From assembly GCF_016903815.1 (NCBI RefSeq), contig NZ_CP069973.1: a stretch of 64,000 nucleotides of DNA; one strand, 5' to 3'. The first letter of the stretch is position 1. Every line of letters starts with the position of its first letter. The notes below the pieces were generated by a model. That model was not told the DNA's origin and ran no database searches. It saw only the letters and a list, made by a program, of their open reading frames with translations. Position numbers and translations under genes: made by a program. This DNA comes from Escherichia coli. Its GTDB lineage: Bacteria; Pseudomonadota; Gammaproteobacteria; Enterobacterales; Enterobacteriaceae. Shown in pieces: positions 1 through 11,413 of the stretch.

Positions 1-473
1 GCCTGAATGTATCGGTACAGAAACTAGAAAATGCCATCGAGTTTTATGGCGCTATTTCGCATAACAAACTGCACGGCCTGTCAGTGCAGGTTGAAACCAA
101 TCACGTCAAATTACCGGCGGTGGTGGACGGCTTTGCCAGCGAAGGGATCATCCAGTTCTTCTTCGAAGAAACGCAAGACGAAAATGGCTTTAATATCTAC
201 ATTCTCGACGAAAGCAACCGGGTTGAGGTGTATCACCACTGCGAAGGCAGCAAAGAGGAGCTGGTGCGTGACGTCAGTCGCTTCTACTCGTCATCGCACG
301 ACCGTTTTACCTACGGCTCAAGCTTCATCAACTTCAACCTGCCGCAGTTCTATCAGATTGTGAAGGTTGATGGTCGTGAACAGGTGATTCCGTTCCGCAC
401 CAAATCGATTGGCAACATGCCGCCTGCCAATCAGGATCACGACACGCCGCTATTACAGCAGTATTTTTCGTGA
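1..473 (+). CDS. cyaA: adenylate cyclase, C-terminal fragment (5' end outside window; reading frame starts at nt 3)
   Basis: Open frame from window start to TGA at 471-473; tail ...[10 protein letters not shown] matches remembered CyaA C-terminus; convergent cyaY follows as in E. coli. Confidence 0.8.
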
Positions 474-512
474 TGAGCGTGCCGGAAAGCGAGGCTTATC
501 CGGCATGCAATC

Positions 513-833
513 TTAGCGGAAACTGACTGTTTCACCCGCTTGCTGCGTTGCCGCCTGTTCCAGCAAATCCCAGAAGGTTTCGCCGCTACGATCGCAAATC
601 CACTCATCGCCTTTCAGATCAAAATGGTAGCCGCCCTGTTTGGTTGCCAGCCATACCTGGTGCAGCGGTTCCTGGCGGTTGATAATGATTTTGCTGCCGT
701 TCTCAAAGGTAATGGTTAGTACACCGCCGTTGATTTCACAGTCGATATCGCTGTCGCCATCCCAGTCGTCCAGACGCTCTTCAATGGTCAGCCACAGTTG
801 ATCAGCCAGGCGATGAAATTCACTGTCGTTCAT
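513..833 (-). CDS. cyaY: frataxin-like iron-binding protein CyaY
   Basis: 106-aa [17 protein letters not shown]... matches remembered CyaY; conserved position. Confidence 0.9.
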
Positions 834-1298
834 TGTTGTATCCTGTTTTTAAGTGATGGCGGCAGTATAGCGGCATGGGGTCAGGGCTTCAAAGTTTGCT
901 CGTCTGCTGCGTTCTGGCATGATTCATCCGTCAACGGAATAATAATGTCTCTATATAGCGAAAGATTGGTCTTTTCATAAGGGCGCAAATACACCACGCC
1001 TTTTCCCTGTTTCTGGTAAATATTATGTTCCGCTCATCAAGCCGACATCCCCATGCCGACGATAAAAACAACGAACAAGCCAACAAACAAACCACATTGC
1101 GATAGTGCATAAAGCCATCCTGGCGCGAGGTGCCGATCACGAAACTACCAGCAAAACATAAATCGCCACGAGTAAGCGTTATACTCGCAGCATTTCCTCA
1201 CTTTTCAGACTTCATAAAGAGTCGCTAAACGCTTGCTTTTACGCCTTCTCCTGCGATGATAGAAAGCAGAAAGCGATGAACTTTACAGGCAATCCATA

Positions 1299-1502
1299 AT
1301 GAAAAACGTGTTTAAGGCACTCACTGTATTACTTACTCTCTTCAGCCTGACGGGCTGCGGTCTGAAAGGTCCGCTCTATTTCCCGCCTGCAGATAAAAAC
1401 GCACCGCCGCCGACCAAACCGGTAGAGACGCAAACGCAATCCACGGTGCCGGATAAAAACGACCGCGCCACTGGCGATGGTCCATCCCAGGTGAATTACT
1501 AA
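1299..1502 (+). CDS. yifL: small lipoprotein YifL (LptM)
   Basis: 67-aa ORF with signal peptide and lipobox LTGC; sits immediately upstream of dapF. Confidence 0.85.
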   Translation: MKNVFKALTVLLTLFSLTGCGLKGPLYFPPADKNAPPPTKPVETQTQSTVPDKNDRATGDGPSQVNY

Positions 1503-1538
1503 AAGTCAGTTTCTGTACCCGCGTGATTGGAGTAAATG

Positions 1539-2363
1539 ATGCAGTTCTCGAAAATGCATGGCCTTGGCAACGATTTTATGGTCGTCGACGCGGTAACGCA
1601 GAATGTCTTTTTTTCACCGGAGCTGATTCGTCGCCTGGCGGATCGGCACCTGGGGGTAGGGTTTGACCAGCTGCTGGTGGTTGAGCCGCCGTATGATCCT
1701 GAACTGGATTTTCACTATCGCATTTTCAATGCTGATGGCAGTGAAGTGGCGCAGTGCGGCAACGGCGCGCGCTGCTTTGCCCGTTTTGTGCGTCTGAAAG
1801 GGCTGACCAATAAGCGCGATATCCGCGTCAGCACCGCCAACGGGCGGATGGTTCTGACCGTCACCGATGATGATCTGGTTCGCGTAAATATGGGCGAGCC
1901 CAACTTCGAACCTTCCGCTGTGCCGTTTCGCGCTAACAAAGCGGAAAAGACCTATATTATGCGCGCCGCCGAGCAGACAATCTTATGTGGCGTGGTGTCG
2001 ATGGGAAATCCGCACTGCGTGATTCAGGTCGATGATGTCGATACTGCGGCGGTAGAAACGCTTGGTCCTGTTCTGGAAAGCCATGAGCGTTTTCCGGAGC
2101 GCGCCAATATCGGTTTTATGCAAGTGGTTAAGCGCGAGCATATTCGTTTACGCGTTTATGAGCGTGGGGCAGGAGAAACCCAGGCCTGCGGCAGCGGCGC
2201 ATGTGCGGCGGTGGCGGTAGGGATCCAGCAAGGTTTGCTGGCCGAAGAAGTACGCGTGGAACTCCCCGGCGGTCGTCTTGATATCGCCTGGAAAGGTCCG
2301 GGTCACCCGTTATATATGACTGGCCCGGCGGTACATGTCTACGACGGATTTATTCATCTATGA
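1539..2363 (+). CDS. dapF: diaminopimelate epimerase
   Basis: 274-aa product [17 protein letters not shown]... with the two catalytic Cys motifs (GNGARC, GSGACA); tandem ATG, second used. Confidence 0.95.
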
Positions 2364-3067
2364 AGCAACCAGGGGAAGAACTGCAGGAAACACTCACGGA
2401 GCTTGATGACCGGGCGGTTGTCGATTATCTGATTAAAAATCCTGAGTTTTTTATCCGCAATGCGCGCGCAGTTGAAGCGATACGTGTGCCGCATCCGGTA
2501 CGCGGCACCGTTTCGTTGGTCGAATGGCACATGGCCCGTGCACGTAATCATATTCATGTTCTGGAAGAGAACATGGCGTTGTTGATGGAACAGGCTATCG
2601 CCAACGAAGGGCTGTTTTATCGCTTACTCTACTTGCAGCGCAGTCTCACCGCCGCCAGCAGTCTCGATGATATGCTGATGCGCTTTCACCGCTGGGCGCG
2701 CGATCTCGGCCTGGCGGGTGCGAGTCTGCGCCTGTTCCCGGATCGCTGGCGTTTAGGTGCACCGTCGAACTACACTCATCTGGCATTAAGCCGTCAGTCT
2801 TTCGAACCGCTGCGTATTCAGCGTCTGGGGCAGGAACAGCACTATCTTGGGCCGCTTAACGGGCCGGAGTTGCTGGTGGTGCTACCTGAAGCGAAAGCGG
2901 TGGGATCGGTGGCGATGTCGATGCTGGGAAGCGATGCTGATTTGGGTGTTGTGCTGTTTACCAGTCGCGATGCCAGTCACTATCAACAAGGGCAGGGAAC
3001 GCAGTTACTTCATGAAATTGCGCTGATGTTGCCGGAGCTTCTGGAGCGTTGGATTGAACGCGTATGA
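2360..3067 (+). CDS. yigA: DUF484-family protein YigA
   Basis: 235-aa ORF overlapping dapF stop and xerC start; operon dapF-yigA-xerC-yigB. Confidence 0.85.
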
Positions 3068-3960
3068 CCGATTTACACACCGATGTAGAACGCTACCTAC
3101 GTTATCTGAGCGTGGAGCGCCAGCTAAGCCCGATAACCCTGCTTAACTACCAGCGTCAGCTTGAGGCGATCATCAATTTTGCCAGCGAAAACGGCCTGCA
3201 AAGCTGGCAGCAATGTGATGTGACGATGGTGCGCAATTTCGCTGTACGCAGTCGCCGTAAAGGGCTGGGAGCTGCAAGTCTGGCGTTACGGCTTTCTGCG
3301 CTACGTAGCTTTTTTGACTGGCTGGTCAGCCAGAACGAACTCAAAGCTAACCCGGCGAAAGGTGTTTCGGCACCGAAAGCGCCGCGTCATCTGCCGAAAA
3401 ACATCGACGTCGACGATATGAATCGGCTGCTGGATATTGATATCAACGATCCCCTCGCCGTGCGCGATCGGGCAATGCTGGAAGTGATGTACGGCGCGGG
3501 TCTGCGTCTTTCCGAACTGGTGGGGCTCGATATCAAACACCTCGACCTGGAGTCTGGTGAAGTGTGGGTGATGGGGAAAGGCAGCAAAGAGCGCCGCCTG
3601 CCGATTGGTCGCAACGCTGTGGCGTGGATTGAGCACTGGCTTGATTTGCGCGACCTGTTTGGTAGCGAAGACGACGCGCTTTTTCTGTCGAAACTGGGCA
3701 AGCGTATCTCCGCGCGTAATGTGCAGAAACGCTTTGCCGAATGGGGCATAAAACAAGGGCTGAATAATCACGTTCACCCGCATAAATTACGTCACTCGTT
3801 CGCTACGCATATGCTGGAGTCGAGCGGCGATCTTCGTGGTGTGCAGGAGCTGCTGGGTCATGCCAACCTCTCCACCACGCAAATCTATACTCATCTTGAT
3901 TTTCAACACCTTGCCTCGGTGTACGATGCGGCGCATCCACGCGCCAAACGGGGGAAATAA
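3064..3960 (+). CDS. xerC: site-specific tyrosine recombinase XerC
   Basis: 298 aa; C-terminal catalytic region [12 protein letters not shown]...[15 protein letters not shown] typical of tyrosine recombinases. Confidence 0.95.
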
Positions 3961-4676
3961 TGCGTTTTTACCGGCCTTTGGGGCGCATCTCGGCGCTCAC
4001 CTTTGACCTGGATGATACCCTTTACGATAACCGTCCGGTGATTTTGCGCACCGAGCGAGAGGCGCTTACCTTTGTGCAAAATTATCATCCGGCGCTGCGC
4101 AGCTTCCAGAATGAAGATCTGCAACGCCTGCGCCAGGCGGTACGGGAAGCGGAACCCGAGATTTATCACGACGTGACGCGCTGGCGTTTTCGTTCGATTG
4201 AACAAGCCATGCTCGACGCCGGGCTGAGTGCCGAAGAAGCCAGTGCAGGCGCACACGCGGCAATGATCAACTTTGCCAAATGGCGCAGCCGAATCGATGT
4301 CCCGCAGCAAACCCACGACACCTTAAAACAGCTGGCGAAGAAATGGCCGCTGGTGGCGATCACCAACGGTAACGCCCAGCCGGAACTGTTTGGTTTGGGG
4401 GATTATTTTGAGTTTGTGCTGCGCGCTGGCCCGCACGGGCGCTCAAAACCGTTCAGCGATATGTACTTTCTGGCTGCGGAAAAACTCAACGTGCCGATCG
4501 GCGAGATCTTACATGTTGGGGACGATCTCACCACTGACGTGGGTGGGGCAATTCGCAGCGGAATGCAGGCTTGTTGGATCAGACCGGAAAATGGCGATCT
4601 GATGCAAACCTGGGACAGCCGTTTACTCCCGCATCTGGAAATTTCCCGGTTGGCATCTCTGACCTCGCTGATATAA
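3960..4676 (+). CDS. yigB: HAD-family phosphatase YigB
   Basis: 238 aa; HAD motif I (FDLDDTLYD) near N-terminus; conserved position. Confidence 0.85.
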
Positions 4677-4683
4677 TCAGCAA

Positions 4684-4703
4684 ATCTGTATATATACCCA
4701 GCT
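4684..4703 (+). promoter_or_regulatory. LexA (SOS) box in the uvrD promoter
   Basis: atCTGTatatataccCAGct fits the CTGT-N8-ACAG consensus, ~60 bp upstream of the uvrD ATG. Confidence 0.75.
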
Positions 4704-4759
4704 TTTTGGCGGAGGGCGTTGCGCTTCTCCGCCCAACCTATTTTTACGCGGCGGTGCCA

Positions 4760-6922
4760 ATGGACGTTTCTTACCTGCTCGACAGCCTTAATGACAAACA
4801 GCGCGAAGCGGTGGCCGCGCCACGCAGCAACCTTCTGGTGCTGGCGGGCGCGGGCAGTGGTAAGACGCGCGTACTGGTGCACCGTATCGCCTGGCTGATG
4901 AGCGTGGAAAACTGCTCGCCATATTCGATTATGGCGGTAACGTTTACCAACAAAGCGGCGGCGGAGATGCGTCATCGTATCGGGCAGCTGATGGGCACCA
5001 GCCAGGGCGGCATGTGGGTCGGCACCTTCCACGGGCTGGCGCACCGTCTGCTGCGTGCGCACCATATGGACGCCAATCTGCCGCAGGATTTTCAGATCCT
5101 CGACAGCGAGGACCAGCTACGCCTGCTCAAACGCCTAATCAAGGCGATGAACCTCGACGAGAAGCAGTGGCCGCCGCGCCAGGCAATGTGGTACATCAAC
5201 AGCCAGAAAGATGAAGGCCTGCGTCCACATCATATTCAAAGCTACGGTAATCCGGTGGAGCAGACCTGGCAGAAGGTGTATCAGGCGTATCAGGAAGCGT
5301 GTGACCGCGCGGGCCTGGTGGACTTCGCCGAGCTGCTGCTACGTGCTCACGAGTTGTGGCTTAACAAGCCGCATATCCTTCAGCACTATCGCGAACGGTT
5401 TACCAATATCCTGGTGGACGAATTCCAGGATACCAACAACATTCAGTATGCGTGGATCCGCCTGCTGGCGGGCGATACCGGCAAAGTGATGATCGTTGGC
5501 GATGACGATCAGTCAATCTACGGCTGGCGTGGAGCGCAGGTGGAGAATATTCAGCGTTTCCTCAATGATTTCCCCGGTGCTGAAACTATCCGTCTGGAGC
5601 AGAACTACCGCTCTACCAGCAATATTCTGAGCGCCGCGAACGCCCTGATTGAAAACAACAACGGGCGTTTGGGTAAAAAACTGTGGACCGATGGCGCGGA
5701 TGGTGAGCCTATTTCCCTCTATTGCGCTTTTAACGAACTCGATGAAGCGCGTTTTGTGGTTAACCGTATCAAAACCTGGCAGGACAACGGCGGGGCGCTT
5801 GCCGAGTGCGCCATTCTCTACCGCAGCAACGCCCAGTCGCGTGTGCTGGAAGAAGCACTGTTACAGGCAAGTATGCCGTACCGTATTTACGGCGGGATGC
5901 GATTCTTCGAACGCCAGGAAATCAAAGATGCGCTCTCGTATCTGCGCCTGATTGCCAACCGTAATGACGACGCGGCCTTTGAGCGCGTGGTGAATACACC
6001 AACGCGGGGTATTGGTGACCGGACGCTGGACGTGGTACGTCAGACATCGCGCGATCGCCAGTTAACACTCTGGCAGGCATGTCGTGAACTGTTGCAGGAA
6101 AAAGCCCTCGCCGGACGTGCTGCCAGTGCCTTACAGCGGTTTATGGAACTGATCGACGCCTTAGCGCAGGAAACTGCCGATATGCCGCTGCATGTACAGA
6201 CTGACCGGGTAATTAAAGACTCCGGCCTGCGCACAATGTACGAGCAGGAGAAAGGCGAAAAAGGCCAGACGCGTATCGAAAACTTAGAGGAACTGGTGAC
6301 GGCGACGCGCCAGTTCAGCTACAACGAAGAAGACGAAGATTTAATGCCGCTGCAGGCGTTCCTCTCCCATGCGGCACTGGAAGCGGGCGAGGGGCAGGCG
6401 GATACCTGGCAGGATGCGGTGCAGTTGATGACGCTACACTCGGCGAAAGGTCTGGAGTTCCCGCAGGTGTTTATCGTCGGTATGGAAGAGGGCATGTTCC
6501 CAAGCCAGATGTCGCTGGATGAAGGTGGGCGTCTGGAAGAAGAACGCCGTCTGGCCTACGTTGGCGTAACCCGCGCGATGCAGAAACTGACGCTGACCTA
6601 CGCGGAAACCCGCCGTCTGTATGGCAAAGAAGTTTACCATCGCCCGTCGCGCTTTATCGGCGAGCTGCCGGAAGAGTGTGTGGAAGAGGTGCGCCTGCGC
6701 GCCACGGTAAGCCGCCCGGTCAGCCATCAACGGATGGGTACGCCGATGGTCGAGAACGACAGCGGCTACAAGCTCGGCCAGCGCGTACGCCACGCTAAGT
6801 TTGGTGAAGGCACCATTGTCAATATGGAAGGCAGCGGTGAGCATAGCCGTTTGCAGGTGGCGTTCCAGGGCCAGGGTATTAAATGGCTGGTGGCGGCTTA
6901 TGCCCGGTTGGAGACGGTGTGA
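4760..6922 (+). CDS. uvrD: DNA helicase II (UvrD)
   Basis: 720 aa from ATG at 4760 (MDVSYLLDSLNDKQREAV...); Walker A GAGSGKTRV; the track ORF at 4571 is an upstream in-frame extension. Confidence 0.95.
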   Translation: MDVSYLLDSLNDKQREAVAAPRSNLLVLAGAGSGKTRVLVHRIAWLMSVENCSPYSIMAVTFTNKAAAEMRHRIGQLMGTSQGGMWVGTFHGLAHRLLRAHHMDANLPQDFQILDSEDQLRLLKRLIKAMNLDEKQWPPRQAMWYINSQKDEGLRPHHIQSYGNPVEQTWQKVYQAYQEACDRAGLVDFAELLLRAHELWLNKPHILQHYRERFTNILVDEFQDTNNIQYAWIRLLAGDTGKVMIVGDDDQSIYGWRGAQVENIQRFLNDFPGAETIRLEQNYRSTSNILSAANALIENNNGRLGKKLWTDGADGEPISLYCAFNELDEARFVVNRIKTWQDNGGALAECAILYRSNAQSRVLEEALLQASMPYRIYGGMRFFERQEIKDALSYLRLIANRNDDAAFERVVNTPTRGIGDRTLDVVRQTSRDRQLTLWQACRELLQEKALAGRAASALQRFMELIDALAQETADMPLHVQTDRVIKDSGLRTMYEQEKGEKGQTRIENLEELVTATRQFSYNEEDEDLMPLQAFLSHAALEAGEGQADTWQDAVQLMTLHSAKGLEFPQVFIVGMEEGMFPSQMSLDEGGRLEEERRLAYVGVTRAMQKLTLTYAETRRLYGKEVYHRPSRFIGELPEECVEEVRLRATVSRPVSHQRMGTPMVENDSGYKLGQRVRHAKFGEGTIVNMEGSGEHSRLQVAFQGQGIKWLVAAYARLETV

Positions 6923-6966
6923 CGTTGCGGGATGCGGTGCGCCACACCGCATTCCGCATCAGCACC

Positions 6967-7869
6967 TTACTTAGCGCACTTCTTCACATCAATATTCCAG
7001 TCAGCACCAGACGCAACCTGATGTTTCTGCGCAAAATTATCCATATTCAGCGCCACGGAAACATTCAATAAGCTGTTCAGATACACCATCGGCTGGCCTT
7101 CCGGCACATCGCCGAAGCTTGCGACATACGGCATTTTCCCTGCGTATTTTTGCTGGGAACCTTCGGAAATGGTCACACACAACGTGTCGTTGAGTTTGAT
7201 TCCTGCCTGATTCAGCAACTCGTCGCTGATATTGCTCCAGACGTTGCCGTACTGAATATCGAGAATCGGGATATTGCCCTTCACTTCACCTTTTGTTGCT
7301 TTTGCTTTCTGATAAGAAAGTTCGACAACTTTTGCAGGAAGCTCTGGCCCCACCTGTTCGAACGTAATCGCTCCGGAAGCCAGACGCGCACCAGTGTAGG
7401 CATATACATCGCGACCATGGAAGGTATATGACTTTTCAGAACCTTTCAGGCGGTTAGCTTTTTCGTCGATTTCCCGGACGCTATCAATACCCAGAGTTTG
7501 TGCCACCAAAGTGAGCGTACCGTTATCTGGTGAAACGAAGTATTGACCGTTTTTGGTTTTCAGCACTACCGATTTACGGTCAGTGCCTACGCCCGGATCG
7601 ACCACGCTAACAAACACCGAACCTTGCGGCCAGTAACTGGCAGTCTGATACAGGCGATAAGCGCCTTCCCAGATGTTATACGGTGGAATTTCGTGTGTTA
7701 AATCAAAGATTTTAAGATTATGGTCAACGCCGAATGCGACCCCTTTCATCGCCGAGACGGCACCATCTTTCAGGCTAAAATCAGTTTGTAAAATCAAAGC
7801 GTTATCCGCATAGGCGGATGATGATCCCAGACACGTTAATAAAAATAACGTTGCGAGCGTTTTTTTCAT
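6967..7869 (-). CDS. secreted SAM hydroxide adenosyltransferase-like protein (DUF62 family)
   Basis: 300 aa; N-terminal signal peptide MKKTLATLFLLTCLGSSSAYA; motifs LQTDFSLKDGAVSAMKGV and FHGRDVYAYTGARLASG resemble the DUF62 fold; family call is from memory of motifs. Confidence 0.6.
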   Translation of the reverse strand: MKKTLATLFLLTCLGSSSAYADNALILQTDFSLKDGAVSAMKGVAFGVDHNLKIFDLTHEIPPYNIWEGAYRLYQTASYWPQGSVFVSVVDPGVGTDRKSVVLKTKNGQYFVSPDNGTLTLVAQTLGIDSVREIDEKANRLKGSEKSYTFHGRDVYAYTGARLASGAITFEQVGPELPAKVVELSYQKAKATKGEVKGNIPILDIQYGNVWSNISDELLNQAGIKLNDTLCVTISEGSQQKYAGKMPYVASFGDVPEGQPMVYLNSLLNVSVALNMDNFAQKHQVASGADWNIDVKKCAK

Positions 7870-7951
7870 TTTTGTTTCCCTTCATTTATCTGATGATTTT
7901 CCAGCTGTGTAGCCAGTCCCAGTTTGTCTGGCCTCCTCGAGTGTACAATGC

Positions 7952-10076: not shown

Positions 10077-10568
10077 CTAAAAATTGTCTTTTTTAAAGTC
10101 ATGCGGATTGAAAACTCGCTCTATTTTATTTTCTTGTGTTAATTGATACTCAGTAAAATCGTTAATACCAATATGAGTGTTACGATAAGGGTATTCATTA
10201 ATAACCATTAAGTAATTTTTCACGATGCAATTATCATTGCTCTTAATTGTCGGGAAACAGTAGAGATCTTCATACGGCCCTTCGATATATTTTTTATAGT
10301 CAGTGAAGCCATTACCGATATCAATGACATACCAGGTATGCCAACTACCTTCTGGTAGGGGATGTTGATTTTTAATTTCATTCTGATGCTTCAGATACCA
10401 ATTTATTTTATCGCTGTCAGTCCATGGCAGATGATCAACGACCAGAAAGACTGAATTGCCAGCATCAGAGTATGTATACAAAATCTGTACAGGACGCAAT
10501 GTCCATAAATTATAGATGCAGCATAGAAGAAATAAACATAATATAATTTTCTGGAGTTTACTTTTCAT
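10077..10568 (-). CDS. hypothetical exported or membrane-anchored protein; candidate immunity partner of the upstream gene
   Basis: 163 aa; N-terminal hydrophobic segment (KIILCLFLLCCIYNLW); start overlaps the upstream stop (ATGA); very AT-rich; no family recognised. Confidence 0.55.
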   Translation of the reverse strand: MKSKLQKIILCLFLLCCIYNLWTLRPVQILYTYSDAGNSVFLVVDHLPWTDSDKINWYLKHQNEIKNQHPLPEGSWHTWYVIDIGNGFTDYKKYIEGPYEDLYCFPTIKSNDNCIVKNYLMVINEYPYRNTHIGINDFTEYQLTQENKIERVFNPHDFKKDNF

Positions 10569-11413
10569 AGATAATTTTCGATTCTTTCGATAGTGTTAAA
10601 ATTGGTGAAAAAAGGTTTGAAAGCAAAGTCTTTATGCCGTTGTAAAAAGAACCATATGCGAAAAAATCTATATTTGCTGTAAGTCTTGTTTTTTATATCA
10701 GTTACATCCAAACCAAAGTGGTCTTGTGCTATGAAATGAATGGTAGCGCTCCAGCCCATAGGATATTTTTGAAAATTTAAAAGAGAGATTTTTTGAGCTG
10801 AGATATCATGAATGCTGATTCCCAGGCCATTAAAATTATCTTTAAAATCATTGAATTTATTTAGTCTTGATGAAAGTAATTCGATCTTAATCTTTTGTAG
10901 GAGAAGAGGCCGGTATCCTATCGTAGGTGTTGAAGAAATATCATTTTCGATACATTCTTTGATTACACGTATTGGGCTATTATAATCATATTTGTTTATT
11001 CGTTCATGAAAAGATAAGTTCAATTCCTGGCTATGGAAACTGTTGCCATTTCCATATCTAAAATGATCAATCAGATCCTGGATGAGTGTTTTGTATTGTC
11101 CAAAAAAGGAAAACATTTTTGCCAGATCTTTCATTTCTGCAAATAAAATATCAATACATTCACTTTGTGATATTTTTGTTCCGGAAGTTGGAACACTAAA
11201 AGCACCATAAGTAGAATTCGGCCCAGGAAAATGGTATTTAATGAGGCGGTAAGGATCAACTTTTGCAGAGATGTCGCTTAAGCCGAGTGAGAGAAAATCT
11301 TGTTCTTCCATATCCCCATATTGCATATCATCAGCAGAAAAATCATCGAATAAAGTAATAGTTTCGAAAAGTGTACAGGGCATATTAATTGATGAGCCTA
11401 ATATGTTGTTCAT
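10565..11413 (-). CDS. hypothetical 282-aa soluble protein; candidate orphan effector/toxin
   Basis: Long ORF in a strongly AT-rich block between corA and rarD; no signal peptide; translationally coupled to the downstream 163-aa gene; family not recognised. Confidence 0.55.
   Translation of the reverse strand: MNNILGSSINMPCTLFETITLFDDFSADDMQYGDMEEQDFLSLGLSDISAKVDPYRLIKYHFPGPNSTYGAFSVPTSGTKISQSECIDILFAEMKDLAKMFSFFGQYKTLIQDLIDHFRYGNGNSFHSQELNLSFHERINKYDYNSPIRVIKECIENDISSTPTIGYRPLLLQKIKIELLSSRLNKFNDFKDNFNGLGISIHDISAQKISLLNFQKYPMGWSATIHFIAQDHFGLDVTDIKNKTYSKYRFFRIWFFLQRHKDFAFKPFFTNFNTIERIENYL

What the first reader, a model, noticed from the sequence alone, without database searches (positions are those of the whole stretch)
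6923..7951. Secreted DUF62-like (SAM hydroxide adenosyltransferase fold) protein between uvrD and yigE
A ~1-kb segment between uvrD and yigE encodes a 300-aa protein with a clear signal peptide and motifs reminiscent of SAM hydroxide adenosyltransferase / halogenase-like enzymes. From memory, yigE follows uvrD closely in K-12, so this looks like an accessory gene. Characterised members of this fold act on cytoplasmic SAM, so an exported one is biochemically odd.
Basis: partly seen in the sequence, partly recalled or inferred. Interest (0 to 1): 0.5.

Follow-up and report, generated by a model that had tools for sequence, protein, structure and literature searches.

The report
Exported SAM-hydrolase homologue shared with H. 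pylori
An accessory E. coli gene between uvrD and yigE encodes an apparently catalytically intact member of the SAM-hydrolase (DUF62) family that carries an export signal, is absent from K-12, and is 90% identical to the uncharacterised Helicobacter pylori protein HP0709, which points to gene transfer between phyla and a possible role for this enzyme family outside the cytoplasm.

Summary
Window 6967..7869 (minus strand) encodes a 300-aa protein with both SAM_HAT Pfam domains. It keeps the Asp-Arg-His triad that separates DUF62 hydrolases from halogenases (D91/R98/H151). It has a 21-residue Sec-type leader (MKK, hydrophobic core, AYA|DN) that lies outside the confidently modelled fold.

The gene is in 2413 of 5426 complete E. 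coli genomes and is absent from K-12 MG1655, where about 128 bp of REP-like sequence fills the slot.

Three additions:
- The closest non-Escherichia relative is H. pylori/H. acinonychis HP0709: 90% aa identity, against 51% for UvrA. dS is about 1.06 and dN/dS about 0.05. This indicates old inter-phylum transfer under strong purifying selection.
- Export is not unique to this gene. Of the 80 nearest classifiable family representatives, 47 have hydrophobic leaders. I found no characterised exported member.
- The Escherichia/Helicobacter/Aeromonas/Burkholderiales clade has two conserved cysteines that relatives outside it lack, a possible disulfide.

Most likely function: a periplasmic hydrolase of SAM or a related adenosyl-sulfonium compound, releasing adenosine and methionine. 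The nutrient-scavenging role is inferred. The gene is already annotated to this family, so this is a new variant of a known kind, of moderate interest.

The parts
6967..7869 (-). CDS of the 300-aa SAM_HAT (DUF62) family pre-protein. RefSeq WP_000751627.1, 'SAM hydrolase/SAM-dependent halogenase family protein'.
   Evidence: ORF list; Pfam hits; PGAP annotation in the 100%-identical strain 7/2.
7807..7869 (-). Codons 1-21: predicted Sec/signal-peptidase-I leader MKKTLATLFLLTCLGSSSAYA, with cleavage predicted before D22.
   Evidence: Heuristic scoring. The leader pattern is conserved, though not its sequence, in Helicobacter, Aeromonas and Burkholderiales homologues. The leader evolves faster than the mature part (dN 0.20 vs 0.044). 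It lies outside the modelled fold. Not a lipobox: Thr at -1, and the Cys is not conserved. No twin-arginine motif.
7348..7794 (-). SAM_HAT_N domain (residues 26-174). Contains D30, PDNGT (114-118) and the catalytic triad D91, R98, H151.
   Evidence: Pfam. Residue-by-residue alignment to PH0463 D68/R75/H127. Family alignment.
6997..7278 (-). SAM_HAT_C domain (residues 198-291). Contains LDIQYGN (203-209, the IDxxFGN motif) and Cys231. Cys298 follows at the C-terminal tail (KKCAK).
   Evidence: Pfam. Motifs from PMC4859513. Cys-pair statistics.
7877..7883 (-). Shine-Dalgarno-like GAAGGGA, 7 nt upstream of the ATG.
   Evidence: Read directly from the sequence.
7870..7951 (-). 82-nt spacer between the yigE stop and the start codon. 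No terminator-like structure and no sigma-70 consensus hit, so co-transcription with yigE is plausible (inferred).
   Evidence: Fold z-score +0.33; promoter/terminator scan.
6926..6958 (.). 14-bp GC-rich hairpin between the convergent uvrD and SAM_HAT stop codons. Its left arm is the last sequence shared with the K-12 'empty' allele.
   Evidence: dG -30 kcal/mol, z -5.7; junction alignments.
6941..7951 (.). Polymorphic segment (about 1.0 kb), replaced in K-12-like genomes by about 128 bp of REP-like sequence.
   Evidence: Alignments A1 and A2; BLAST of the K-12 spacer; 418-bp span of nearly all listed 'empty' matches.

Best explanation
The gene encodes a periplasmic (Sec-exported, signal-peptidase-I-processed) member of the SAM hydroxide adenosyltransferase/DUF62 family. 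After cleavage at AYA|DN, the 279-residue mature protein adopts the canonical two-domain fold. It probably forms the family's homotrimer, and a clade-specific Cys231-Cys298 disulfide may stabilise it. The conserved Asp91-Arg98-His151 triad would activate water to attack C5' of S-adenosylmethionine, or a closely related adenosyl-sulfonium compound, in the periplasm and release adenosine plus L-methionine. These could then be imported, so SAM, which as far as I know E. coli has no transporter for, would become usable purine and methionine.

Shown here: family membership, intact catalytic and nearly invariant residues, the leader, the gene's accessory status, strong purifying selection, and the HGT link to H. 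pylori HP0709.

Inferred: cleavage and localisation, disulfide, trimer, substrate identity, and the scavenging role.
For: Family and fold: Pfam; PDB sequence hits at 1e-43; AlphaFold pLDDT 94.7 and Foldseek top 40 hits all DUF62/SalL/FlA, with target-normalised TM up to 0.92.

Catalytic competence: D91/R98/H151 align with PH0463 D68/R75/H127. All 20 positions that are at least 90% conserved across 97 diverse homologues are present. D30, N209, PDNGT and LDIQYGN match the motifs listed in PMC4859513.

Export: leader features are conserved across four bacterial groups despite sequence divergence. Homology to cytoplasmic enzymes starts after the leader. No start-capable codon other than codon 25 lies between M1 and the domain, and the TTG at codon 25 is not conserved outside Escherichia/Helicobacter. 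There are exactly two Cys in the mature part in 247 of 252 clade sequences, and the pair is absent from 80 of 80 outside representatives. The H. pylori orthologue was detected in outer-membrane-vesicle proteomes (PMC8756444; weak evidence).

Selection: dN/dS about 0.05 over dS about 1.06.

Scavenging role, circumstantial: H. pylori grows efficiently on adenosine as sole purine source and imports it via NupC (PMC3368855). Neighbours in other lineages include a phosphopentomutase-type Metalloenzyme-family gene (PF01676) and a DeoC-domain fusion, and a Tat-exported PhoX phosphatase.
Against: There is no experimental localisation or activity for any member of this clade. No dedicated signal-peptide predictor was available; only a heuristic was used. 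The protein scores far below NCBIfam's equivalog cutoffs for (R)-SAM hydrolase (131.5 vs 350; 116.9 vs 470), so it is not an orthologue of the characterised enzymes and its substrate could differ. Gene neighbourhoods are not conserved between lineages, and no riboswitch was found, so context gives no firm functional link. The availability of extracellular SAM in the gut or stomach is uncertain. The OMV proteome also contains ribosomal proteins, so it does not prove export. The Cys-Cys distance could not be measured because no model coordinates were available.
Confidence: 0.6

Rival explanations
1. The protein is exported, but its physiological substrate or reaction is not SAM hydrolysis. It may act on another adenosyl-sulfonium or 5'-substituted adenosine compound found outside the cell, or it may serve to generate extracellular adenosine as a host-directed signal rather than as a nutrient.
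For: It scores well below the equivalog cutoffs of the characterised (R)-SAM hydrolases. The exported branch is large and diverse, and 19 of 47 leader-bearing representatives have altered triads, which suggests functional diversification in that branch. The role of even the cytoplasmic DUF62 enzymes is debated (PMC12120602). An HP0709 SNP is associated with gastric cancer risk (PMC6090961).
Against: In this clade the triad and all nearly invariant family residues are intact. By established chemistry, nucleophilic displacement at C5' needs a good leaving group such as a sulfonium, which limits the alternatives.
Confidence: 0.2
2. The hydrophobic N-terminus is not a cleaved signal peptide. Either it is an uncleaved membrane anchor, or translation can also start at the in-frame TTG (codon 25), giving a leaderless cytoplasmic enzyme that works like ordinary DUF62 (R)-SAM hydrolases.
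For: TTG at codon 25 is conserved in Escherichia and Helicobacter, and it would give an N-terminus like that of the cytoplasmic homologues. Cleavage has not been shown.
Against: The h-region is only about 12-13 residues, too short for a transmembrane helix, and is followed by a conserved small-x-small site. There is no Shine-Dalgarno sequence before codon 25, whereas the ATG has one. Codon 25 is CTN, not start-capable, in Aeromonas and all four MAG lineages, which nevertheless keep the leader. The clade-specific Cys pair fits an oxidising compartment.
Confidence: 0.1
3. It is a SAM-dependent halogenase (chlorinase/fluorinase-like) acting on halide outside the cytoplasm.
For: The RefSeq name includes 'SAM-dependent halogenase family'. 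The fold matches SalL and FlA. There is a weak TIGR04507 fluorinase hit.
Against: The hydrolase triad, which halogenases lack, is present (PMC10491745). The SalL Y70 position is Val89, and FlA's T80/S158 are not matched (Val89/Gly152) (PMC4859513). The TIGR04507 score is 83.9 against a cutoff of 400.
Confidence: 0.03

Closest known systems
PH0463 (PhDUF62), SAM hydroxide adenosyltransferase of Pyrococcus horikoshii (PDB 1wu8/2wr8)
   Same: Same two-domain fold (Foldseek target-normalised TM 0.87). Identical Asp-Arg-His triad by alignment. Same conserved substrate-binding Asp and Asn and the PxNG / IDxxFGN-type motifs.
   Different: About 30% identity. PH0463 has no leader and is cytoplasmic. 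It has no Cys231/Cys298 pair. It is archaeal and thermophilic.
(R)-S-adenosyl-L-methionine hydrolases (StDUF62 of Salinispora tropica; MJ1651, PDB 2f4n/22uy; SaciSAMH/HvSAMH)
   Same: Same family and triad. These are the only members with a proposed physiological role: removal of the inactive (R,S)-SAM epimer (bioRxiv 10.1101/2025.08.29.672840; PMC12120602).
   Different: The window protein scores far below the NCBIfam equivalog cutoffs. A repair role for cytoplasmic SAM cannot be carried out by an exported protein. Stereoselectivity is unknown here.
Thermotoga maritima 2zbu/2zbv (uncharacterised DUF62 protein)
   Same: Best solved relative: E 1.3e-43 by sequence, target-normalised TM 0.91, rmsd 2.2 Å. 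Triad conserved.
   Different: 34% identity in the structural alignment. No leader. Function not determined.
SalL chlorinase and FlA fluorinase (SAM-dependent halogenases)
   Same: Same fold and same SN2 chemistry at C5' of SAM. Shared ribose-binding Asp and adenine-binding Asn.
   Different: They lack the triad and have halide-binding residues (Y70/G131; T80/S158) that the window protein lacks. They are cytoplasmic enzymes of secondary metabolism.
Helicobacter pylori HP0709 (jhp0648, UniProt O25413)
   Same: Orthologue by horizontal transfer: 300 aa, 90% identity, same leader, triad, Cys pair and C-terminus.
   Different: It lies in a different chromosomal context (flgR-uvrA-hopE-rsmH-HP0708-[HP0709]-homA) and appears near-universal in H. 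pylori/H. acinonychis rather than accessory. It is likewise uncharacterised, described as 'less well-annotated' in PMC6090961.
Periplasmic nucleotide/nucleoside-scavenging hydrolases of E. coli (UshA, CpdB) and phage T3 SAM-degrading enzyme (functional analogues, recalled from own knowledge)
   Same: UshA and CpdB convert non-importable adenine nucleotides into importable nucleosides in the periplasm, which is the logic proposed here. The T3 enzyme also destroys SAM.
   Different: Unrelated folds and chemistries. The T3 enzyme acts in the cytoplasm to evade restriction. No homology was tested or expected.

Membership tests
SAM hydroxide adenosyltransferase / DUF62 superfamily (Pfam PF01887 + PF20257) | N-terminal SAM_HAT_N domain above the Pfam gathering score | tested here: met
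   179.7 bits against cutoff 26.3, residues 26-174, full profile coverage.
SAM hydroxide adenosyltransferase / DUF62 superfamily (Pfam PF01887 + PF20257) | C-terminal SAM_HAT_C beta domain above the gathering score | tested here: met
   66.8 bits against cutoff 25.5, residues 198-291.
SAM hydroxide adenosyltransferase / DUF62 superfamily (Pfam PF01887 + PF20257) | Two-domain alpha/beta + beta fold of FlA/SalL/PH0463 | tested here: met
   AlphaFold pLDDT 94.7. The Foldseek top 40 PDB hits are all from this family, with target-normalised TM 0.78-0.92.
DUF62 hydrolase subgroup (as opposed to halogenases) | Strictly conserved Asp-Arg-His triad (PH0463 D68-R75-H127) that activates water | tested here: met
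   D91, R98 and H151 align residue for residue. His is present in 244 of 252 clade sequences. The triad is defined in PMC10491745 and PMC4859513.
DUF62 hydrolase subgroup (as opposed to halogenases) | Substrate-binding Asp (FlA D16) and Asn (FlA N215); motifs PxNGL and IDxxFGN | tested here: met
   D30 and N209 are present. PDNGT (Leu replaced by Thr) and LDIQYGN (Phe replaced by Tyr) are close variants (motifs from PMC4859513).
DUF62 hydrolase subgroup (as opposed to halogenases) | Homotrimer with active sites at subunit interfaces | not testable with these tools
   Only a monomer model without coordinates was available.
DUF62 hydrolase subgroup (as opposed to halogenases) | Hydrolysis of SAM to adenosine + L-methionine | not testable with these tools
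   Requires an enzyme assay.
(R)-S-adenosyl-L-methionine hydrolase equivalogs (NCBIfam NF058624, NF053629) | Score at or above the curated equivalog cutoff | tested here: not met
   131.5 against 350 and 116.9 against 470. It is a family member but not an equivalog.
(R)-S-adenosyl-L-methionine hydrolase equivalogs (NCBIfam NF058624, NF053629) | Cytoplasmic location, needed to repair the cell's own SAM pool | tested here: not met
   An N-terminal export leader is present and conserved. All solved members lack it.
SAM-dependent halogenases (fluorinase TIGR04507; chlorinase SalL) | Halide-coordinating residues (FlA T80/S158 or SalL Y70/G131) and absence of the triad | tested here: not met
   Val89 occupies the Y70/T80 position, Gly152 occupies the S158/G131 position, and the triad is present. 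TIGR04507 scores 83.9 against cutoff 400.
Sec-dependent, signal-peptidase-I-cleaved periplasmic proteins | Positively charged n-region, hydrophobic h-region of about 10-15 residues, small residues at -3/-1 | tested here: met
   Heuristic only: MKK (+2), best 9-residue hydropathy 2.32, AYA|DN. The pattern is conserved in Helicobacter, Aeromonas and Burkholderiales homologues. No dedicated predictor or experiment was available.
Bacterial lipoproteins (signal peptidase II) | Lipobox [LVI][ASTVI][GAS]C with an invariant Cys | tested here: not met
   E. coli has LLTC, with Thr at -1. The Cys is absent in H. acinonychis (VVHIG) and in the MAG and Aeromonas leaders.
Tat-exported proteins | Twin-arginine motif (S/T-R-R-x-F-L-K) in the n-region | tested here: not met
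   The leader is MKKTLATLF..., with no RR.
Known anti-phage defence systems (PADLOC) | Match to a PADLOC model | tested here: not met
   No hits for this protein or its neighbours.

The most novel reading that the evidence does not exclude
Exported SAM_HAT proteins form a large, unstudied extracytoplasmic branch of the DUF62 family. The E. coli/H. pylori clade would be a host-niche adaptation, passed between phyla, that converts extracellular SAM into adenosine and methionine at the cell surface. This would feed H. pylori, which grows efficiently on salvaged adenosine (PMC3368855) and which I recall, without checking here, to require exogenous methionine. It might also generate immunomodulatory adenosine, in the manner of staphylococcal AdsA (recalled from memory). 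That could underlie the reported association of an HP0709 variant with gastric cancer risk.
Probability: 0.12. Interest if true: 0.8.

Novelty: new variant of a known kind. Interest (0 to 1): 0.5.

Why it matters
The physiological purpose of DUF62 SAM hydrolases is unresolved. The leading idea, repair of the cytoplasmic (R,S)-SAM epimer, cannot apply to an exported enzyme. Yet leader-bearing members make up more than half of the nearest family representatives examined here.

This gene offers two experimentally convenient entry points. One is a naturally present/absent allele in E. coli, with about 44% of complete genomes carrying it. The other is a conserved, uncharacterised H. pylori gene (HP0709) that has already been flagged in a gastric-cancer GWAS.

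The 90% identity between E. coli and H. pylori, against 51% for UvrA, is an unusually clear inter-phylum transfer between two inhabitants of the human gut and stomach, maintained under strong purifying selection in both. If the enzyme does hydrolyse SAM in the periplasm, that would define a new route for acquiring methionine and purine.

Tried and rejected
1. AlphaFold on a six-sequence alignment gave an unusable model (pLDDT 42). It was redone with 97 diverse sequences.
2. I wanted to measure the Cys231-Cys298 distance, but no coordinates are exposed. Only co-occurrence statistics were possible.
3. The scan of GTDB species genomes used two very specific peptides (DNFAQKH, ADNALILQ) and returned only four loci. 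It cannot be read as an exhaustive taxonomic survey. In particular, presence or absence in H. cetorum, E. albertii, E. fergusonii and Salmonella remains untested.
4. Key primary papers (Eustaquio 2008, Kornfuehrer 2020) are not held. The triad definition was taken from PMC10491745 and PMC4859513 instead.
5. The literature search combining 'SAM hydrolase', 'signal peptide' and 'periplasmic' returned only irrelevant papers among those listed. Searches for jhp0648 and O25413 added nothing new.
6. No riboswitch or other Rfam element was found near the gene in the window or in six homologous loci.
7. There are no PADLOC defence-system hits.
8. The 81%-identical 'E. coli HS-02' copy looked like a divergent allele but is a frameshifted pseudogene. 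The same assembly has an internal stop in nearby yigF, so sequencing error is likely.
9. I looked for remnants of the gene in the K-12 empty allele to polarise the event as a loss. None were found beyond the shared 18 nt.
10. Gene neighbourhood gave no conserved partner: yigE/uvrD in Escherichia, HP0708/homA in H. pylori, PhoX in Aeromonas, deoB-like/abhydrolase or folE in the MAGs.
11. A lipoprotein and a Tat substrate were both considered and rejected (see the membership tests).
Full report
**1. What is in the sequence**

It holds one long ORF, 6967..7869 on the minus strand, 300 aa, starting with ATG. A GAAGGGA Shine-Dalgarno-like sequence lies 7 nt upstream of the ATG.

A 14-bp GC-rich hairpin (6926..6958, -30 kcal/mol, z = -5.7) sits between the two convergent stop codons. 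The 82-nt spacer to yigE has no terminator-like fold (z = +0.33) and no sigma-70 consensus match. Co-transcription with yigE is therefore plausible but only inferred.

The window is 100% identical here to E. coli strain 7/2, from human faeces. In that genome PGAP annotates the gene as 'SAM hydrolase/SAM-dependent halogenase family protein', WP_000751627.1.

**2. Family assignment**

Both Pfam domains of the family are hit far above threshold: PF01887 SAM_HAT_N at 179.7 bits and PF20257 SAM_HAT_C at 66.8 bits. Sixteen distinct PDB sequences match, all from the DUF62/chlorinase/fluorinase family. The best is the uncharacterised Thermotoga maritima protein 2zbu (E 1.3e-43).

With a 97-sequence alignment, AlphaFold2 gives mean pLDDT 94.7 and pTM 0.88. 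The top 40 Foldseek matches in the PDB all belong to this family, with target-normalised TM up to 0.92.

The literature defines the hydrolase subgroup by a strictly conserved triad, D68-R75-H127 in PH0463, which halogenases lack. Halogenases instead carry halide-binding residues: T80/S158 in FlA and Y70/G131 in SalL (PMC10491745, PMC4859513). Residue counting in the HMMER alignment gives D91 = D68, R98 = R75 and H151 = H127. SalL has Y, T and Y at these three positions, and the SalL Y70 position is Val89 in the query.

All 20 positions that are at least 90% conserved across the 97 homologues are present in the E. coli protein. It is therefore a hydrolase-type, apparently catalytically competent member.

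It is not an equivalog of the characterised (R)-SAM hydrolases or of fluorinase. Its scores are 131.5, 116.9 and 83.9 bits against curated cutoffs of 350, 470 and 400.

**3. The leader**

Residues 1-21 (MKKTLATLFLLTCLGSSSAYA) have a +2 n-region and a hydrophobic core. The best 9-residue hydropathy is 2.32, against 1.33 anywhere in the first part of the mature protein. The site is A-Y-A|D-N.

Every alignment to a solved, cytoplasmic homologue begins at query residue 23-29 and near the N-terminus of the target. The model is confident only from about residue 23.

The leader is not a lipobox: Thr sits at -1, and the Cys is missing in H. acinonychis and more distant clade members. It has no twin arginine.

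A downstream Met start is impossible without deleting the conserved TDF motif. The only alternative start-capable codon before the domain is TTG at codon 25. It has no Shine-Dalgarno sequence, and it is CTN in Aeromonas and the four MAG lineages, which still keep a leader.

The leader evolves about five times faster at non-synonymous sites than the mature part (dN 0.20 vs 0.044) while keeping its physicochemical pattern. That is the usual behaviour of signal peptides. No dedicated predictor or experiment was available, so cleavage and localisation remain predictions.

**4. Accessory status in E. coli**

The CDS is present, full length and chromosomal, in 2413 of 5426 complete genomes (44%). 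K-12 MG1655 lacks it: uvrD ends at 4,000,145 and yigE begins at 4,000,292.

The two alleles share sequence through the uvrD stop plus 18 nt, which is the left arm of the hairpin, and again from the yigE stop codon. Between those points the window has about 1.0 kb, while K-12 has about 128 bp of REP-like sequence with no remnant of the gene. Nearly all listed 'empty' matches span the same 418 bp, which suggests one ancestral event.

Two divergent Escherichia lineages (L006, L007) carry the gene in the same slot. The gene's divergence from the window (94.4% and 93.8% identity) matches that of the flanking uvrD (94.7% and 93.2%) and corA. This fits long vertical residence in Escherichia with secondary loss in K-12-like lineages, but the polarity is not proven.

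Carriers include O157:H7, O145 and APEC O1 strains, plus Shigella proteins. Non-carriers include K-12 and strain 97-3250.

**5. The unexpected relative**

After Escherichia/Shigella (96-99%), the next-best proteins in a 5.8-billion-protein database are from Helicobacter pylori and H. acinonychis: 300 aa, about 90% identical over the full length. They come from complete 1.6-1.7 Mb genomes, and one 90%-identity cluster alone has 2579 members.

The H. pylori gene lies in a normal chromosomal context (flgR, uvrA, an HP_OMP gene, rsmH, HP0708, the gene, homA... rpoN) and is HP0709/jhp0648/O25413. Contamination is excluded because the DNA is only 83% identical and the similarity is confined to the CDS.

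As a baseline, H. pylori UvrA from the same locus is 51.4% identical to E. coli UvrA, and no closer to E. coli than to Bacillus (52.7%).

Between the two hosts dS is about 1.06, dN about 0.054 and dN/dS about 0.05. This is an old transfer followed by strong purifying selection in both.

In a neighbour-joining tree, Escherichia and Helicobacter are reciprocally monophyletic sisters. The next relatives, at 65-73% identity, are an Aeromonas caviae chromosomal gene and uncultured Burkholderiales/Neisseriales MAGs. Every other member of the clade is proteobacterial.

The H. pylori copy is compositionally foreign: GC3 0.49 against 0.30-0.43 for its neighbours. The MAG copies match their genomes. Helicobacter is therefore the probable recipient.

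The E. coli copy (GC3 0.50, against 0.60-0.68 for uvrD, corA and xerC, but equal to yigE at 0.51) is also somewhat atypical. A third, unsampled donor cannot be excluded.

I found no paper that mentions this relationship. HP0709 appears only as a 'less well-annotated' gene with a gastric-cancer-associated SNP (PMC6090961), in OMV proteome lists (PMC8756444), and as a landmark next to homA and a prophage hotspot (PMC6083042, PMC11321410).

**6. How unusual is export in this family?**

An exhaustive HMMER search of 1.84 billion cluster representatives found 8752 family members at E <= 1e-3. Of the 88 full-length-like sequences among the best 150, 80 could be classified. Of these, 47 have an N-terminal extension of at least 22 residues with a strongly hydrophobic window. 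Eight of the 47 have a lipobox-like motif. Thirty-two have no leader, and one is ambiguous.

Named examples include Paraglaciecola and Bdellovibrionales MAGs.

This sample is biased towards relatives of the query, so 59% is not a family-wide frequency. It does show that extracytoplasmic SAM_HAT proteins are a large, diverse group, with no characterised member that I could find.

The canonical triad is kept in 28 of 47 leader-bearing representatives and 25 of 32 leaderless ones. This hints at functional diversification in the exported branch. One MAG lineage inside the tight clade has Phe in place of the His.

A distinguishing feature of the Escherichia/Helicobacter/Aeromonas/Burkholderiales clade is a pair of cysteines, Cys231 and Cys298, the latter in a C-terminal KKC motif. 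Exactly two Cys occur in the mature part in 247 of 252 clade sequences, and the pair is absent from all 80 outside representatives. A disulfide would suit a periplasmic protein. I could not measure the distance because coordinates are not exposed.

**7. Mechanism proposed**

Shown here:
- an intact hydrolase-type active site;
- a conserved export leader;
- strong purifying selection.

Inferred:
- The pre-protein is exported by Sec and cleaved after Ala21.
- It folds in the periplasm, possibly disulfide-stabilised, and trimerises like its relatives.
- It hydrolyses SAM, or a close adenosyl-sulfonium analogue, to adenosine + L-methionine.

Why a cell would do this is the weakest step. The most economical idea is scavenging. 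As far as I know, E. coli has no SAM transporter, whereas adenosine and methionine are readily imported. H. pylori grows efficiently on adenosine as sole purine source, taken up via NupC (PMC3368855).

Context is only mildly suggestive. The neighbours are a phosphopentomutase-type Metalloenzyme-family gene (PF01676) and a DeoC-domain fusion in two related MAG loci, a Tat-exported PhoX in Aeromonas, and the exported phosphodiester glycosidase YigE in E. coli. No partner is conserved across lineages, and there is no riboswitch.

**8. Comparison with what is known, and verdict**

The protein works like, and is a member of, the DUF62 SAM hydrolase family. It is not a halogenase and not an equivalog of the (R)-SAM 'repair' hydrolases, whose proposed role needs a cytoplasmic location.

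The gene is already annotated to its family in RefSeq, so the family assignment is not new. What I did not find described is:
- the extracytoplasmic variant as a class;
- the clade-specific Cys pair;
- the E. coli/H. pylori orthology by inter-phylum transfer.

I rate it a new variant of a known kind, of moderate interest (0.5). My confidence is about 0.6 in the exported-hydrolase model and much lower in the specific scavenging role.

Noticed in passing
window 10077..11413 (minus strand): Two ORFs (163 aa, DUF943 family; 282 aa, 'YPO3983 family' in PGAP) form a 32-34% GC islet directly after corA. K-12 has yigF/yigG in this slot instead. This is a second replacement-type polymorphism about 2 kb from the SAM_HAT gene. 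There are no PADLOC hits.
   Followed up: partly
L003 8001..8903 (H. pylori HP0709) and window 6967..7869: Public records variously name this protein 'acetolactate synthase' (many Shigella and H. pylori entries), 'adenosyl-chloride synthase', or 'SAM-dependent chlorinase/fluorinase'. The GWAS paper notes the conflicting annotations. None of these names fits the hydrolase-type active site.
   Followed up: partly
L009 3446..4348 (Neisseriaceae/Burkholderiales MAG; P0121 cluster): Within the otherwise conserved exported clade, this lineage has Phe in place of the catalytic His (TFFGRD) while keeping the Asp, the Arg, the leader and both cysteines. Four of 252 clade sequences show this.
   Followed up: partly
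Representatives P0266-P0415: Among leader-bearing family representatives, 19 of 47 have non-canonical residues at the triad positions (e.g. DRD, DRQ, DRY, DTY, NKF), against 7 of 32 leaderless ones. This suggests that the exported branch contains proteins with altered or lost hydrolase chemistry.
   Followed up: no
L009 610..3435, L010 11066.., L003 2516..5341; window 4571..6922: The homologue lies immediately next to uvrA in the Neisseriaceae MAG, a few kb from uvrA in another MAG and in H. pylori, and next to uvrD in E. coli. This is probably coincidence, but the repeated proximity to excision-repair genes is curious.
   Followed up: no
L015 5001..5858 (E. coli HS-02, NZ_CP172818.1): This copy is only 81% identical at the DNA level and is annotated as frameshifted with an internal stop. 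yigF in the same assembly also has an internal stop, so assembly or sequencing error is more likely than a real divergent allele.
   Followed up: yes
PLSDB records NZ_AP026896.1, NZ_CP134663.1, NZ_CP141089.1: Whole chromosomes of 4.9 Mb (Aeromonas caviae, E. coli) are filed as 'plasmids' in the plasmid collection. This was useful here as an accidental source of chromosomal sequence, but it is a data-quality trap.
   Followed up: no
window 4571..6922: The mechanical ORF for uvrD (783 aa from a TTG) is longer than the annotated 720-aa DNA helicase II, which in locus L002 spans 961..3123. The true start is therefore near window 4760.
   Followed up: partly
L017 2647..2792 (K-12 uvrD-yigE spacer): The 146-bp 'empty' allele contains REP-like sequence (e.g. 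CGCCGCATCCGGC) in place of the gene. The occupied allele keeps only a related hairpin.
   Followed up: partly
H. pylori HP0709 codon 49: The gastric-cancer-associated non-synonymous SNP reported at nucleotide 145 (D in 'safe', N in 'risk'; PMC6090961) falls at residue 49. In the AlphaFold model this is the loop just after helix 37-48, and it is Asp in all Escherichia and the listed Helicobacter sequences examined here.
   Followed up: no
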